Positions 13,978 through 19,900 of a DNA stretch of 64,000 bases are shown one piece after another. Source of the stretch: Longimicrobiales bacterium (GTDB lineage: Bacteria > Gemmatimonadota > Gemmatimonadetes > Longimicrobiales > Gaopeijiaceae); contig CAXXKM010000002.1 in the NCBI GenBank assembly GCA_963664435.2, forward strand, positions 512,001 to 576,000, written 5' to 3'. The position numbers are program-made. Every line of letters begins with the position of its first letter. Positions within the stretch are counted from its first letter, which is position 1.

Positions 13978-16900
13978 CTACAACGCCATCCACCATCCGG
14001 TGGTGGGGCGCAACGGGATGGTTGCCACCCAGAACTTCCTCGCGACGGAAATCGGGGTGGACATCCTGAGCCGGGGCGGCAACGCCATCGACGCGGGGGT
14101 GGCGGTGGGCCTGGCGCTCGCGGTGACCCTTCCGCGCGCGGGCAACGTGGGCGGCGGCGGCTTCATCCTGGTGCACCTGGCCGAGGAGAACCGCACGGTC
14201 GCGATCGACTTCCGCGAAACCGCGCCCGCGGCCGCGCACTCCGACATGTTCTTCGGGCCCGACGGCGAGGTCGACAACGACGAGTACCGCTTCAGCCACA
14301 AGTCGTCGGCAATCCCCGCGTCGGTGGCCGGTTTCGATCACCTGCTGCGCAACTACGGCACCATGAGCTGGCGCGAGGTGGCCCAGCCGGCCATCGACCT
14401 GGCGCGCGACGGCATGGTGGTGTGGGAGGACCTCGCCGTGAACCTCGCCCGCAGCAAGCCGCGGCTGAGCGCCAATCCTGCGTCGCGCGCCAAGTTCTAC
14501 AAGGCCGACGGCTCCAACTACGAGGTCGGTGACGTCTACAGGCAGCCCGACCTGGCCTGGACGCTCGAGCAGGTCGCCGAGGGCGGCGCCGACGCCTTCT
14601 ACAGGGGCGAGATCGCCCGCCGCATCGCCGACGACATGGCAAAGCACAACGGCCTGATCACCATGGAGGACCTGGCCAACTACCGCGTGGTAGAGCGCGA
14701 GCCGGTGCGCGGCACCTTCGGGGGCTACGACATCGCGGCCATGTCCGCGCCCAGCTCGGGCGGGATGCACATCGTCCAGATGCTCAACATCTTCGAGAAC
14801 TTCCCCCTGAAGGAGATGGGCTACGGGAGCGCCGACGCCATGCACGTCATGGCCGAATCGATGAAGCTGGCGTACGCCGACCGCAGCAAGTACCTGGGCG
14901 ACCCGGACCACCTCGACCTCCCGGTGGCGGCCCTCACGAGCAAGGACTACGCGGCGGAGCTGGCGCGGGGCATCTCCCTCAGCAGCGCCCGCCCGTCATC
15001 GGACATCGGCCCGGGCAACCTGGCCCCCTATGAAAGCCCGGAGACCACGCACTACTCGGTCCTCGACAGCGAGGGCAACGCGCTGGTCAACACCTACACG
15101 CTGATGTTCTCCTACGGCTCGGGCGTCGTGATCGAGGGCACCGGCATCCTCATGAACAACAACCTCGGCAACTTCACCCTGCGGCCCGACATCCCCGACG
15201 CCTTCGGGCTGATGGGCAGCGCGGACAACCAGATCGCCGCGGGGCGCCGGCCGGTGAGCTCCATGACCCCGATCATCGTGCTGCGCGACGGGCGCCCCTT
15301 CCTGCTCACCGGCAGCCCGGGCGGAAGCCGCATCATCACGACCAACCTGCAGCTGCTGGTGAACGTGCTCGAACACGGCATGAACATCGCCGACGCCACC
15401 GCGCGGCCCCGCATGCACCATCAGTGGTACCCGGATCGCCTGGAGGTCGAGAGCGGCTTCAGCCCCGATGTGATCCGCGCGCTCCGGGCCCGCGGCCACG
15501 ATGTGCAGTTCAGTGCCGGGATGGGCAGCCTGCAGACCGTGATGTTCTCCGACGGGCTGTTCTACGGCTACGGCGATCCGCGCCGGCCGGGGGCGATGGC
15601 GCTGGGGTACTGAAATGGTGACCGGGGTCCCATCCGGGTCTGGTCTCCGGGTCCATCCGGGCCTGGTCAACCGGGTGCATCCGGGCCTGGTCACCGGATC
15701 CATCCGGGCTTGGTCACCGGGTCCATCCGGGCCTGGCCGCCGCGTCAATTCCGGGCCTGGTCACCGGGTCCATCCGGGCTTGGTTGCCGGCACGACCCCC
15801 GGCCTGATCACCGGCACCATGCAGTCCCGAATTCACATGACGGAGTCTCGTTCTGCCATTGACAAGGTTTGGCGTCCCCCGACGCAGGGGGACCAGGAGC
15901 GGCCGTCCTGAATTCACATGGCGGAGTCCCATTCTGCCATTGACGGATTCGGAGGTCGCGATTCGGCAGAGTCCGACATTCCGGATTCACCAGCCCGCCA
16001 GAGGCGCTGACGGACGCGCTGACAGCGTTCGCGGACCCATGCCTCTTCCGAAGATCTCCCAACCCCGCTTCGGCCACTACAGGGCATCCTGAGAAGCCGA
16101 TTCGAGGGGCGTTATATTTGTACGTAAGTCATGGTACAATCGCATGTTGGGAGGAATGATGATCGCATCTCCAGACGTTCTCTACGATACGCGCGGGAGG
16201 TCCTCTCCCTGGCCCGCGATGGTGCGCGAACCGACTGGCTCCCGGCCCGCCACCAGGCGCGTGTCCCCGGATGCCCTCTCCGCGCCCGGCGCCGTCACTC
16301 CCCGCGACGATGACCTCGCCCGGCTGGGCGAGCGCATCGCGGAGCTGGCCGCGGGCATCAATGCCGCGGAATCGCGGATGATGGCCCTCCTCGCCGATTT
16401 CGATCGCCGGGGCGGCTGGAAGGACGGCTTCGGCTCCTGCGCGGAGTGGCTCGCCTGGAAGATCGGCATCACGATCGGGCCGGCCCGCGAACGGGTGCGG
16501 GCCGCCCGCGCGCTGGAGAATCTGCCGCAGACCGCCGACGCTCTTCGGGAGGGGACCATCTCCTACGCCAAGGTGCGGGCGCTGACGCGCGTCGCGACGC
16601 CGGCGAGCGAGGCGGAGCTGCTCGAGTTCGCACGCGCCGGCTCGGCCGCGAGGCTGGAGCGGATGGTGCGCATGTGGAAGAAGCTGTCGCGCGATGAGGA
16701 ACTGACCGCCGAGCAGGCCCGGCACCGCAGCCGCACGTTCTCGATGTTCGTGGACGGCGACGGGATGTACGTGGTGAAGGGCCGGCTCGAGCCGGAGGTC
16801 GGAGCGGTGCTGATGCGCGCGGTGGAGGCGGCGTCGGATGCGCTGTTCCGACGCGAGGGCGGGGCCCGAGCCGGAGCAGGAATCGCAACGAGTGTCAGGC

Positions 16901-19900
16901 GAGACGCCGGCGATGCGCGCCCGGAGCCGAAGCAGCGGCGGGCGGATGCGGTGGGGCTATTGGCGGAGCGGGCGCTGGCGGCCGGGTTCGGAGATAGCGA
17001 ACTCGGCGACGAGCTGAAGACTCGATCCCACGACGATGGGCCCCGTGACGATGCGCCCCAATCCGAGGACGAGCCGCAGACTCGGTCCCGCGAGGAGTGG
17101 CAGCCCCGATCCCGCACTGAACCGCCCGCCTCCCGCGGCGTCGAATCCGGCACCCGTGCGGAGCGCTACCAGGTGATGGTACATTGCGATGCGGCGACGC
17201 TCGCGGCGGAGGGCGAGCCCGGACGCTCGGATCTGGACGGGATCCGCGTTTCCGCGGAGACGTCGCGGCGCATGGCGTGCGATGCCGCGGTGGTGGCGAT
17301 GGTCCACGCGAAGGATGGCTCGTTGCTGAAGGATAGCTCGCTGCTGAACGTCGGACGCAGGACGCGCACCATTCCTCCGCACATCCGGCGTGCGCTGGAG
17401 GAGCGCGACCGCGGATGCCGCTTCCCCGGGTGCGGGTGCAGGTTCACCGAGGCGCATCACGTGAAGCACTGGGCCGACGGAGGTGAGACGAGCCTCCGGA
17501 ACACACTGTTGCTCTGCCGGCGGCACCATCGCGCCGTTCACGAGGGACAGGTGAAGGTGTCGGTGAACGGCGATGGGACAGTGCTCTTTTTCACGCCCAG
17601 CGGGAAGATGCTGGCGGACGCGCCGCGCAAGCCGACATCGGCGGACACGCTGGGCAAGCCGACATCGGCGACGGCGCCGGGCAGGCCGAGATCCGCGACC
17701 GTGCCGGGCAAGCCAACATCGGCGACCGCGCCAGGGCAGCGAGGCGAAGGGGAAGCACAACCGCCCACGCAGCAGGGGTGGGAGGACTTGCCTCGCGTCC
17801 CATCCGTCCATCCCGGTGCCCCGCCGATGAGCAAGACCGTCGCCCTCTCAAACGGGGCCGCGCTCTACCGCGATTCCGATATCCCGTGGGAGATCGAGGC
17901 CAGGGCGCGCGAAGCTGTGGAGGAGTCTCTGGAATGACGGGGTCGTCCCCTCCGTAGAGCGTATCGCCCGCGATCGGGCGCACTTCTCCCCGAGATCACC
18001 GGAGGAGCCGGCCTCAGGACTGGCAGCAGACGCCCATCAGAGCTGCGGGAACCACGCGGGAAATGATCGCGTGGACCTCCGCGCCGGAGCGGAAAATGAT
18101 CTCGTGGACACGCGCCGGAGGGGGAGATGATCGCGTGGCCCCCCGCGCCGGAGCGGGAGATGATTGCGTGGCCCCCGCGCCGGAGGGGGAGATGATCGCA
18201 TGCACCTGCGCGCCCAGCCGAAAGTCACGGACTGTACACGTAAACTACCGGCAGCCTGGACACGTCGGTGACGCTGTTGTCCGTGTGGTGGTAGATGTTC
18301 ATCCGTCCCGTGCCGCAGTCGCCGAAGGCATCGCAGGATATCGTCCCGACCAAGCCGGTCATCGCGGTAGCTCGCACCTGCGCGCGCAACGCCGCCCGGT
18401 CGATGTGCAGTCTGTCGCCCTCCTCCACGGCGACGGACTGAATGGCCGACAGAAGCATGGTGGTCGCGTCATAGGCGTGCGCCCAGTAGGGGGACTGAGG
18501 GAAACCGCCGTGCCTGGCCTCGAACGCGGCGAGAACCTGCTGCCCGCTTCTTCCGGTCCGCTCGTTCACGTTTGAGCCGAAGTCCGATTCCGGGCCGGCG
18601 AAGTAGATCCCCTCCGACTGGGGCGTTTCCAGGAACGCGGAGACCAGCAGCGCGGCGGCCGATATCAGGGTGGTCCCTTCGAGCCCGTCGAAGGCCCGCG
18701 CCTGCGCGGCAAATGCCGATCCTTCCGTCACGAACAGCGGAAAGAAGATGGCATCCGGGCCGGCGGCCGCGAACTCCGCGAGAACGTCCGTCATGTCGGT
18801 GTCGCCCTTGTCGATTTCGGCCCGGGTCGGCACTTCGCCGCCGAGGGCCGAGAACGCATCGGCGAACGCCGCCACCAGGGCGGACGTGTACGGGTCACCG
18901 TCGTGCACGGTGGCCACGCGCCTGAGTTCCAGCTGGTTGTACACGAAGTCCGACAGAGCCCGTGCCTGGTGGAGGTCGTTGGACGACACGCGAAAGTATC
19001 CCGCGTGATGGTCGGCATCCGGTGTGCCGGCCAGGTCCGAGGTGAGCCGCGGCGAGGTGTTGCTGGGCGAAATCATGACCAGACCCGCATCGGTGACGAC
19101 GGGCGATGCGGCCACGGCCGCGGCCGAGCAGTTCGTGCCGATGACGCCCGCCACCTGCGGATCTCCGACGATTCCACCCGCCCCCGCGCGGCCGCCCTCC
19201 GGCGAACAGCTCGTGTCGATCGGCTCCCCCAACTCGACCGGGCGCCCGTGGATGGAGCCCATGTCCTCGGCGGCGAACTCGGCCCCCTGCCGGGACACGG
19301 CGCCAAGCGTCGGCGCAACCGTGACCGAGAGCAACATGCGGAGCCGCACGGCCTCGCCCGCCTCCAGCGTGACCGCGCCCAGCGGGCCGGGCTCGAATTC
19401 AACCGGCGGCTCGACCGGCGGCTCAACCGGAGGTTCGACCGGTGGCTCGGTCGCATCACGGCATCCCGACAGGGCGAGAACCGCTGCCAGCGCCGTACCG
19501 AGTGGAATGATGTGCCTGTGCATGAGAACCGCTCCTCCCTGGTCGTTTCTCGTGACCTGATGTTGGTCGTTTCTCGTGACCTGATCGTTGTCCACCGGCG
19601 CGGACGAGCGGCGCCGGTGCGTGCCGTTACTCGGGGCCCGGTTCGCCCATGGCGCGGCTGACCACGGATGAGCCCCAACGCCGCGCCCAACGTAGCGCCA
19701 CGCTTGCGGTGACGGCCATCGTGGCGGCCAGCACGTTGAACAGAATGTCGACGGGGTCGAAGACCCGGCTGGGGATAAGCCTCTGGATCCCCTCGTCGAT
19801 GAGGCCGACCAGGGAAGCCGCCACGATCGCGAGCAGCGGCGGCACGGGGACCCGGCGGCCCTGTCTGGCGCGCTCCGTCAGCGCCTCATGGATGAAGACG

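What a model noticed while it worked through the whole genome (the two positions that open the first line are those of the whole stretch)
15826..17940. DUF222-HNH gene is the sole ORF of a transposase-free mobile element with one fixed end
Four DUF222-HNH genes (also C1:1053045, C2:797224, C3:776609) share a ~265-bp non-coding leader that starts sharply at CCCGAATTCACAT...TGCCATTGAC, lie at unrelated sites, have no inverted repeats, target duplication, transposase or integrase, and end at the stop codon amid short tandem repeats. Orthologous sites in relatives are filled, empty or keep only the left end, so the unit behaves as a self-contained mobile element.
Evidence so far: Copies and leaders call 57; many further leader copies in 17 of 18 genus genomes; 35 leaders align from the same start while sequence upstream differs. 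C2:527826 site: filled in G005, reduced to a 15-bp left-end remnant joined to the right flank in G010, absent in five others; C3:776355 site empty with a 50-bp remnant in G001, C2:796968 site empty in G005; two solo left ends here (C3:1273777, C3:1716792). DUF222 + HNH: 5 papers, none describing such an element by title or abstract start.
(Added by a program. Inside this text positions count along the whole contig: contig position 512,001 is position 1 of the stretch shown here. "Call 12" and the like, gene names such as g00115 and contig names such as C1 are that model's own, and its searches are not shown. The text may have been shortened before it was handed on; [...] marks where a part breaks off. 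The agent that wrote the report below was given it as the finding of a first reader that could run no searches.)

Follow-up and report, generated by a model that had tools for sequence, protein, structure and literature searches.

The report
Nuclease-only jumping gene, fixed leader
This is one copy of a selfish DNA unit in a sponge bacterium whose only gene is a DNA-cutting enzyme unlike known transposases, and whose conserved ends now make it testable whether such enzymes can move their own gene.

Summary
The unit is real: four related DUF222-HNH genes share a leader, lie mostly in front of a convergent gene, and lose homology at the stop codon. One site is filled in one genome, a remnant in one, and empty in 13, which points to gain.

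Corrections: the left end is not one sharp point but a 1-7-unit tandem array with truncated outer units. The 'solo ends' and remnant sites are decayed copies. This site is filled in 10 of 18 loci.

New: the leader is a geometric DNA element. A GTCCC-N7-CAT box lies 186-189 bp before the promoter block in five genera, with ~10-bp A/T phasing and no RNA fold. In a sister genus, 30 of 30 copies are bracketed by inverted box repeats. The protein is a ParB-like HTH plus HNH, with no transposase-like fold found.

Best reading (0.4): it cuts at its own boxes and host repair copies it. Rivals: borrowed IS ends (0.25); a hot-spot gene homogenised by conversion (0.25). It is a variant of the REP13E12 kind. 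This scan noted similar elements before on other DNA.

The parts
13442..15613 (+). Left neighbour: gamma-glutamyltranspeptidase (ORF as listed; true start further in)
   Evidence: PF01019 E 1e-164
15616..15814 (.). Degenerate 23-bp tandem repeats, partly matching the 3' end of the M20 peptidase gene that abuts GGT in G001 and G009; junction filler, not element
   Evidence: TRF; match to M20 end
15824..15904 (+). Outer 81-bp unit: double box (GTCCC-N7-CAT twice, 21 bp apart) plus tail; one of 1-7 tandem units in relatives
15905..15944 (+). Inner double box; its second half (from 15926, GTCCCA-N7-AT(G/T)GAC, imperfect dyad) is the family-wide core; proposed HTH binding site (inferred)
15945..16112 (.). 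Fixed-length, almost indel-free non-coding spacer with helical periodicity; no conserved RNA fold
16090..16154 (+). Promoter block: TATATT at 16113 (187 bp from the core), inverted TTGTAC-N10-GTACAA at 16118-16139, TACAAT -10-like hexamer, GGAGG ribosome site
   Evidence: sequence; promoter role inferred
16144..17937 (+). DUF222-HNH gene (597 aa from first ATG; likely start 16156 or 16159)
16366..16683 (+). ParB/KorB/Spo0J-like helix-turn-helix region (aa ~75-180)
   Evidence: model; 6s6h_B Z 7.9, rmsd 2.8, 101 aligned; 1vz0 Z 6.7; 8qa8 Z 6.3
17365..17382 (+). RTIPPH codons: insertion point of tyrosine-integrase islands in relatives
   Evidence: L096, L098, L121, L132, L115; integrase Pfam
17431..17544 (+). 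HNH nuclease domain with conserved Cys/His/Asn residues; a second integrase family inserts at aa ~453-463 in relatives
17617..17738 (+). In-frame 27-bp tandem repeats in a disordered linker
   Evidence: TRF; pLDDT <50
17887..17937 (+). C-terminal helix (PWEIEA...), aligned together with the HTH domain in the fold search; homology between sites ends here
18056..18199 (.). 33-bp tandem repeats on the right flank
   Evidence: TRF
18225..19595 (-). Convergent right neighbour: periplasmic binding protein
   Evidence: PF13458
20227..21582 (-). M20 peptidase; directly abuts GGT in G001 and G009, so this gap has collected several insertions

Best explanation
A selfish, nuclease-only mobile element of the DUF222-HNH (REP13E12) kind.

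SHOWN: one ORF (HTH + HNH). A conserved box 187 bp before its promoter block. Boxes multiplied in tandem at the left end in this genus, and inverted at both ends in a sister genus. Many lineage-specific sites, mostly facing a convergent gene. No target duplication; ragged edges; later decay, recombination and invasion by integrase islands.

INFERRED: the HTH binds the GTCCC-N7-CAT boxes; the phased 187-bp spacer bends or wraps to join the box to the promoter block (assembly or autoregulation of the complex); the HNH domain nicks or cuts at or beyond the bound boxes; and host break repair (Ku, RecA) copies or joins the fragment into another break. That would give imprecise ends, filler and short duplications instead of a target duplication. 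Copies cut short of the stop codon are lost, so the surviving right edge is the stop.
For: Gain: a site with a 4-bp gap in G000 is filled in G001, a remnant in G011, and empty in 13 genomes including G001's sister G009. At least 27 left-flank clusters. Intact-ORF copies number 0-10 per complete genome. Ends: 30 of 30 fetched copies (of 32 found) in five sister-genus genomes lie between inverted ~40-55-bp box repeats, with short derivatives that keep both ends. Core-to-TATATT distance is 186-189 bp in g1 (51 of 58), G182 (8 of 9), G183 (7 of 7), G185 (4 of 5), G176 (8 of 8) and G211 (2 of 2). A/T period ~9.8 bp, p<0.004, over 68 leaders of mean 53% identity. ParB-like HTH plus McrA/IscB-like HNH. 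The full motif occurs only at these elements in G000 (9 hits) and in none of 75 IS1380 or rve transposase loci. Ku in 5 of 5 genomes. Relatives in only 2 of 72,556 plasmids and none found in viral contigs.
Against: No excision joint or circle in four runs, all contigs. No fresh insertion with clean junctions was found; the closest copies are 87-98% identical. Same-site copies are more alike (0.79) than same-genome copies (0.73; background 0.70), so many sites are old. The target gaps collect unrelated inserts too. The second subfamily spreads alike but has neither boxes nor inverted repeats, and four further genera lack the right repeat (20 loci). The HTH match is at Z under 8. Binding and cutting are untested.
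Confidence: 0.4

Rival explanations
1. Passenger on borrowed transposon ends. The boxes are ends of a DDE element of the multi-site kind (IS21/Tn7-like architecture, recalled). A transposase elsewhere moves the cassette, one-ended in this genus, and the HNH only helps retention, as TnpB and IscB do.
For: Inverted ends with boxes 21 bp apart; T precedes GTCCC at 26 of 30 right ends, giving TG. Short derivatives keep both ends. An IS21 end reading ...CCATTGACA sits in the arrays of both G008 copies. Earlier scan notes report ISAs1 ends around HNH genes elsewhere (unchecked).
Against: No target duplication (2 of 30, chance level). Only 10 of 30 left ends have the T. None of 75 IS loci carries the ends, and all 9 motif hits in G000 are at these elements. 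Core and 187-bp spacing follow the protein family across genera, which one borrowed end would not explain. Transposase families other than rve and IS1380 were not screened.
Confidence: 0.25
2. Not self-mobile. A selfish or stress-linked nuclease gene with a long regulatory region (upstream operator looped to the promoter) is duplicated now and then by generic illegitimate recombination into tolerant intergenic gaps. Copies are then homogenised by gene conversion. The 'ends' are just the limits of selection.
For: Shared sequence spans exactly operator to stop codon in both subfamilies; the second starts at a LexA-type box also found upstream of lexA. Old shared sites with remnants. Chimeric flanks show recombination between copies. 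Same-site copies are scattered over the tree. Conversion and inversion among 13E12 repeats are documented in M. tuberculosis (PMC13061034, PMC13157036; passages).
Against: Does not explain inverted boxes downstream of the gene in 30 of 30 sister-genus copies, nor short derivatives with both ends, nor why this gene reaches 5-10 copies at lineage-specific sites in many genera.
Confidence: 0.25
3. RNA-based system: the leader or the array units are a guide or scaffold RNA (HEARO/IscB- or TIGR-like), or the unit retrotransposes using a host reverse transcriptase.
For: The HNH fold resembles IscB's (Z 7.2); variable tandem units upstream; one RT gene in G000; 3 of 20 single leaders fold with z below -4.
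Against: RNAalifold gives zero pairs on 51 leaders and on 68 cross-genus leaders on both strands. No Rfam match. Unit tails are homologous to each other and recur between sites rather than being unique spacers. The unit includes DNA upstream of its promoter.
Confidence: 0.05
4. ISEcp1-like one-ended transposition by the resident IS1380 transposase.
For: IS1380 ends here begin CCCGGATT, like the motif's CCCGAATT; 5 of 45 right tails score as IS1380-like ends against 0 of 126 mostly coding controls.
Against: Median IS1380 profile score of the left motif is 0.2. IS1380 was found in only 8 of 19 genus genomes: not in element-rich G010, G007, G017 or G018, but in G006, which has no element. The motif really starts at GTCCC, and the CTAG flank of these IS1380 copies was not a feature of the copies read.
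Confidence: 0.03

Closest known systems
REP13E12 / 13E12 repeat family (PF02720 DUF222 + PF01844 HNH) of Mycobacterium tuberculosis
   Same: [quoted passage not shown] The second subfamily here starts at a LexA-type box.
   Different: This subfamily has a 187-bp fixed-geometry leader, tandem box arrays and, in a sister genus, inverted ends; no LexA-type box was seen in it. The invading islands use tyrosine integrases, whereas phiRv1 uses a serine integrase (recalled). Filled and empty sites can be compared across species.
Mobile insertion cassettes / MITEs (IS ends around passengers)
   Same: Inverted ends and short two-ended derivatives in the sister genus; no transposase inside.
   Different: No target duplication; no IS with the same ends found; right end missing in five genera.
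IS200/605 OMEGA elements (IscB, TnpB) and HEARO
   Same: HNH of similar fold in a mobile unit with a long conserved non-coding part.
   Different: No RuvC domain or HUH transposase seen, no conserved RNA structure; carries a ParB-like HTH instead.
IS21 / Tn7 / Tn5053-type ends (recalled)
   Same: Repeated ~21-bp-spaced sites in inverted orientation.
   Different: No DDE gene, no constant TG terminus on the left, no target duplication.
Xer cer/psi sites with ~180-bp wrapped accessory DNA (recalled)
   Same: Fixed-length, helically phased ~180-bp segment between two conserved blocks.
   Different: The promoter block differs at 10 pattern positions from a dif pattern that the genome's own dif-like site fits with 1 mismatch.

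Membership tests
REP13E12 / DUF222-HNH repeats | DUF222 followed by HNH | tested here: met
REP13E12 / DUF222-HNH repeats | Dispersed multiple copies | tested here: met
REP13E12 / DUF222-HNH repeats | Attachment site for integrative elements | tested here: met
   two integrase families at two conserved coding positions in relatives
REP13E12 / DUF222-HNH repeats | LexA / DNA-damage control | tested here: inconclusive
   LexA-type box heads the second subfamily; not found in this leader; expression untested
Mobile insertion cassette / MITE | Terminal inverted repeats | tested here: not met
   absent in 45 genus copies; present only in the sister genus
Mobile insertion cassette / MITE | Target-site duplication | tested here: not met
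   2 of 30 short; 3 of 74 long against 1 of 83 controls; none evident at clean empty sites
Mobile insertion cassette / MITE | Cognate autonomous IS with the same ends | tested here: inconclusive
   none in G000 or in 75 IS1380/rve loci; other families not screened
IS1380 / ISEcp1 transposition unit | Left end matches the IS1380 inverted repeat and co-occurs with the transposase | tested here: not met
OMEGA / HEARO / TIGR | Conserved structured RNA or repeat-spacer guide array | tested here: not met
   unit tails homologous
DDE, HUH, tyrosine or serine transposases | Catalytic fold of these enzymes in the ORF | tested here: inconclusive
   no Pfam hit; none listed in fold searches of the whole model or the middle domain, which does not exclude one
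Xer-exploiting elements | dif-like core | tested here: not met
Any mobile element | Observed excision or transposition | not testable with these tools
   contigs only; no joint across the element

The most novel reading that the evidence does not exclude
DUF222-HNH proteins are the mobilising enzymes of an unrecognised class of bacterial transposable elements. An HTH binds iterated end boxes, a fixed 187-bp phased segment assembles the complex, the HNH domain cuts, and host end-joining completes insertion, with no DDE, HUH, tyrosine or serine chemistry. Two-ended (sister genus) and one-ended (this genus) forms are stages of one system.
Probability: 0.35. Interest if true: 0.88.

Novelty: new variant of a known kind. 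Interest (0 to 1): 0.62.

Why it matters
DUF222-HNH is a very large family (12,925 clusters at E up to 1e-10). Its best-known members, the 13E12 repeats, drive inversions and gene conversion in M. tuberculosis yet are described as lacking a defined function (PMC13061034, passages). Here the family has defined cis elements: a box consensus, a 187-bp spacing, inverted ends and natural mini-elements, in a harmless sponge symbiont. That turns 'do these genes move themselves?' into a direct binding, cutting and jumping assay. If they do, it is a transposition chemistry not on the list of known ones and a compact site-specific nuclease. Even if not, the copies act as landing pads for integrase islands and as recombination points.

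Tried and rejected
RNA structure of the leader: none. A permissive ribosum run scored only slightly beyond the best column shuffles. Coding leader: no 3-base periodicity, p 0.22. IS1380 in trans and dif-like core: rejected. Long target duplications: not general. The 120 bp shared upstream of the two G008 copies proved to be an IS21 end, not element DNA.

Fold searches of the middle domain gave nothing above Z 5.2 or below E 0.1; Foldseek of the whole model had no match at E 0.001; the ESM Atlas gave only unnamed clusters. Reads: no RNA holder listed; four contig runs show no excision joint. Viral contigs: no relative with this query. Metagenome motif scan: 5 loci, not analysed. Pattern was mis-spaced and gave 0; corrected. 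The box regex used N6 instead of N7, so its counts were discarded (redone). G190's spacing was not resolved by my pattern. The sequence look-up of earlier findings returned nothing.
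Full report
WHAT IS THERE. The window holds a 597-codon ORF at 16144-17937 with DUF222 and HNH domains, between a gamma-glutamyltranspeptidase gene and a convergent periplasmic binding protein gene. Close relatives lie in Longimicrobiales (Gemmatimonadota) records, and runs holding the stretch include sponge metagenomes. G000 has six DUF222 genes: four of this subfamily (A) and two of a second one (E) at about 40% identity. Subfamily A occurs in 17 of 18 other genus genomes; homologs at E up to 1e-45 occur in 90 of 201 family genomes.

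THE LEFT END. The motif consensus from 134 units is GTCCCGAATTCACATTCGCGAGTCCCATTCTGCCATTGAC: two GTCCC-N7-CAT boxes 21 bp apart. It scores only at the nine places belonging to these elements in G000. It heads an 80-103-bp unit present in 1-7 tandem copies; the window has two, at 15824 and 15905. Unit tails are homologous to each other and recur at different sites, so they are not unique spacers. Outside the first motif there can be a truncated unit (G011) or up to ~110 bp shared between sites. The edge is ragged; what is fixed is internal. The core of the inner box lies 186-189 bp before the TATATT promoter block in 51 of 58 genus copies, 8 of 9 in G182, 7 of 7 in G183, 4 of 5 in G185, 8 of 8 in G176 and 2 of 2 in G211. 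It was resolved in 2 of 4 (G181), 1 of 3 (G184), 1 of 3 (G101) and at best 1 of 7 (G190). The 51-leader alignment is almost free of gaps, shows an 11.4-bp conservation period (p 0.004) and no codon period, and has no consensus RNA pairs. Sixty-eight non-redundant leaders, selected for exactly 187 bp and averaging 53% identity, show a 9.8-bp A/T period (p<0.004) and no fold on either strand. This reads as a DNA element with required geometry (inference).

THE RIGHT END. In this genus, homology between sites stops near the stop codon. The conserved last codons encode a helix that aligns together with the N-terminal domain in the fold search, so that conservation is probably protein-level. No inverted motif follows in 45 copies, nor in 20 loci fetched from four more genera (8 of 9, 7 of 11, 3 of 5 and 2 of 3 matches). 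In five other Longimicrobiales genomes, however, 32 subfamily-A loci were found and 30 fetched, partly guided by motif hits. All 30 lie between inverted ~40-55-bp repeats built of the same boxes, and four short derivatives keep both ends. That pattern occurs in 5 of 201 family genomes, four of them genus g20. The genus-g1 motif occurs in 8 of 121 order genomes, all g1. Target duplications are absent (2 of 30; long ones 3 of 74 against 1 of 83). Tandem repeats flank about a fifth of ends, three times the intergenic rate, and all six G000 genes contain some.

GAIN, LOSS AND EXCHANGE. The fetched copies fall into at least 27 left-flank clusters. The right neighbour is convergent at 17 of 22 callable sites. 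The clearest gain is the site at G000 C3:879786: a 4-bp gap here, one unbroken match in 12 other genomes, a full element in G001 and a left remnant in G011. The window's own site is old: element or left part in 10 of 18 loci, truncated in G012, remnant in G010, none in five, unplaced in one. Both 'solo ends' are filled in relatives; C3:776355 shows remnants in G001 and G014. These gaps also collect unrelated inserts. On a leader tree, copies from one genome often pair across sites. The nearest neighbour is in the same genome for 20, at the same site for 16 and neither for 11 of 47 copies; mean identity is 0.79 by site, 0.73 by genome and 0.70 otherwise. Some copies join the left flank of one site to the right flank of another. 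So insertion, long persistence, conversion and decay all act. Many truncated copies were split by tyrosine-integrase islands at two conserved coding positions.

PROTEIN. The AlphaFold model (pLDDT 75.5) has an N-terminal domain like ParB/Spo0J/KorB DNA-binding domains (Z 7.9, rmsd 2.8, 101 residues; a middling score but repeated across the family) and an HNH like McrA and IscB (Z 7.3, 7.2), with conserved Cys, His and Asn residues. The middle domain matched nothing. No transposase or recombinase fold was listed, which does not exclude one.

SECOND SUBFAMILY. The two E copies are 97.7% identical at unrelated sites. E copies across the genus start at CCGAAC-N5-CCGAA, which also lies upstream of lexA, end near the stop, and have filled and empty sites. 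The gene-only unit is thus a family trait, while boxes and inverted ends are not universal; this weakens any model that needs them.

MECHANISM. Most likely (0.4) the protein binds its boxes and cuts, and host repair inserts the copy; Ku is present in 5 of 5 genomes tested. All catalytic steps are inferred. A borrowed-ends cassette (0.25) fits the inverted multi-box ends, but no IS with them was found in G000 or 75 IS loci, and there is no target duplication. A non-mobile gene spread by generic duplication and conversion (0.25) fits the old sites but not the inverted ends. RNA-guided or retro (0.05) and IS1380 (0.03) models failed their tests. Contigs of four runs show no excision joint.

LITERATURE. 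I read matching passages only, no supplements, of PMC3381160 (13E12 repeats as LexA-controlled insertion elements with phage attachment sites), PMC13157036 (inversions between them), PMC13061034 (87 conversion events; no defined function) and PMC10589994 (picked up as repetitive elements by a mobile-element finder). Gordon et al. 1999 was seen only as a reference there. Searches for DUF222 (28 papers), 13E12, REP13E12 (22 papers) and combined terms listed no title or abstract start describing end structures or a mobility mechanism; one search gave listings on ISEcp1. Most subscription papers are not covered. Statements on phiRv1, ISEcp1, IS21/Tn7 ends, cer/psi, TnpB, HEARO and TIGR are recalled. 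Earlier notes of this scan describe DUF222-HNH genes with inverted ends in other genomes, some assigned to borrowed ISAs1 ends; they are unchecked and prompted the screen.

VERDICT. A real, mobile-behaving unit and a new variant of the REP13E12 kind, with newly defined cis anatomy. Self-mobilisation is unproven. Interest 0.62.

Noticed in passing
G000 C1:1395789 and C3:802669 (L225, L226): Second DUF222-HNH subfamily starting exactly at CCGAAC-N5-CCGAA, also upstream of lexA at C3:344251: a candidate LexA box for this lineage.
   Followed up: partly
L096:2150-5849, L098, L121, L132, L115; L118, L130, L131: Two tyrosine-integrase island families use conserved coding positions of the DUF222-HNH gene as attachment sites.
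   Followed up: partly
L117:4028-4170 (G001): Mini-element: about 52 bp of left end joined directly to the last codons of the gene.
   Followed up: no
G000 C1:1520850-1520980 (L230): Fragment of HNH codons fused to the C-terminal codons; the site is filled in G005 and G010.
   Followed up: partly
G000 C3:1271500-1273780 (L228); L134: Left end and right-end remnant enclose an unrelated ORF (546 aa, no Pfam hit, in G000): cargo or replacement.
   Followed up: partly
L122, L123 (G008): IS21-family element or its end inserted in the unit array of both copies; its terminus resembles the motif's 3' end.
   Followed up: partly
L345, L349, L350, L353, L354, L358, L359: A palindrome CCCTGACGTAACGTTAGGG lies about 100 bp outside the left repeat in G182 and G183 copies; a similar one lies 0.4 kb downstream of L359.
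   Followed up: no
L384, L376: In sister-genus genomes the same repeat also flanks, in direct orientation, a multi-copy Cys-rich ORF with no Pfam hit.
   Followed up: no
G000 C2:289648-291332 (L148): Intact IS1380 with inverted repeats starting CCCGGATTTCTCACAG, flanked by CTAT and CTAG.
   Followed up: yes
G000 C3:142152: dif-like site (1 mismatch to a recalled pattern).
   Followed up: no
L302: A copy with the genus-g1 leader in a record titled Vicinamibacteria: transfer between phyla or mis-binning.
   Followed up: no
window 15613-20227: The GGT-M20 gap has collected the element, a binding-protein gene and a VanZ-like gene in different combinations across the genus.
   Followed up: partly
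L262, L263, L267, L268; G000 C3:134130: A short TTAGCTTAGTC-type repeat fills several convergent gaps.
   Followed up: no
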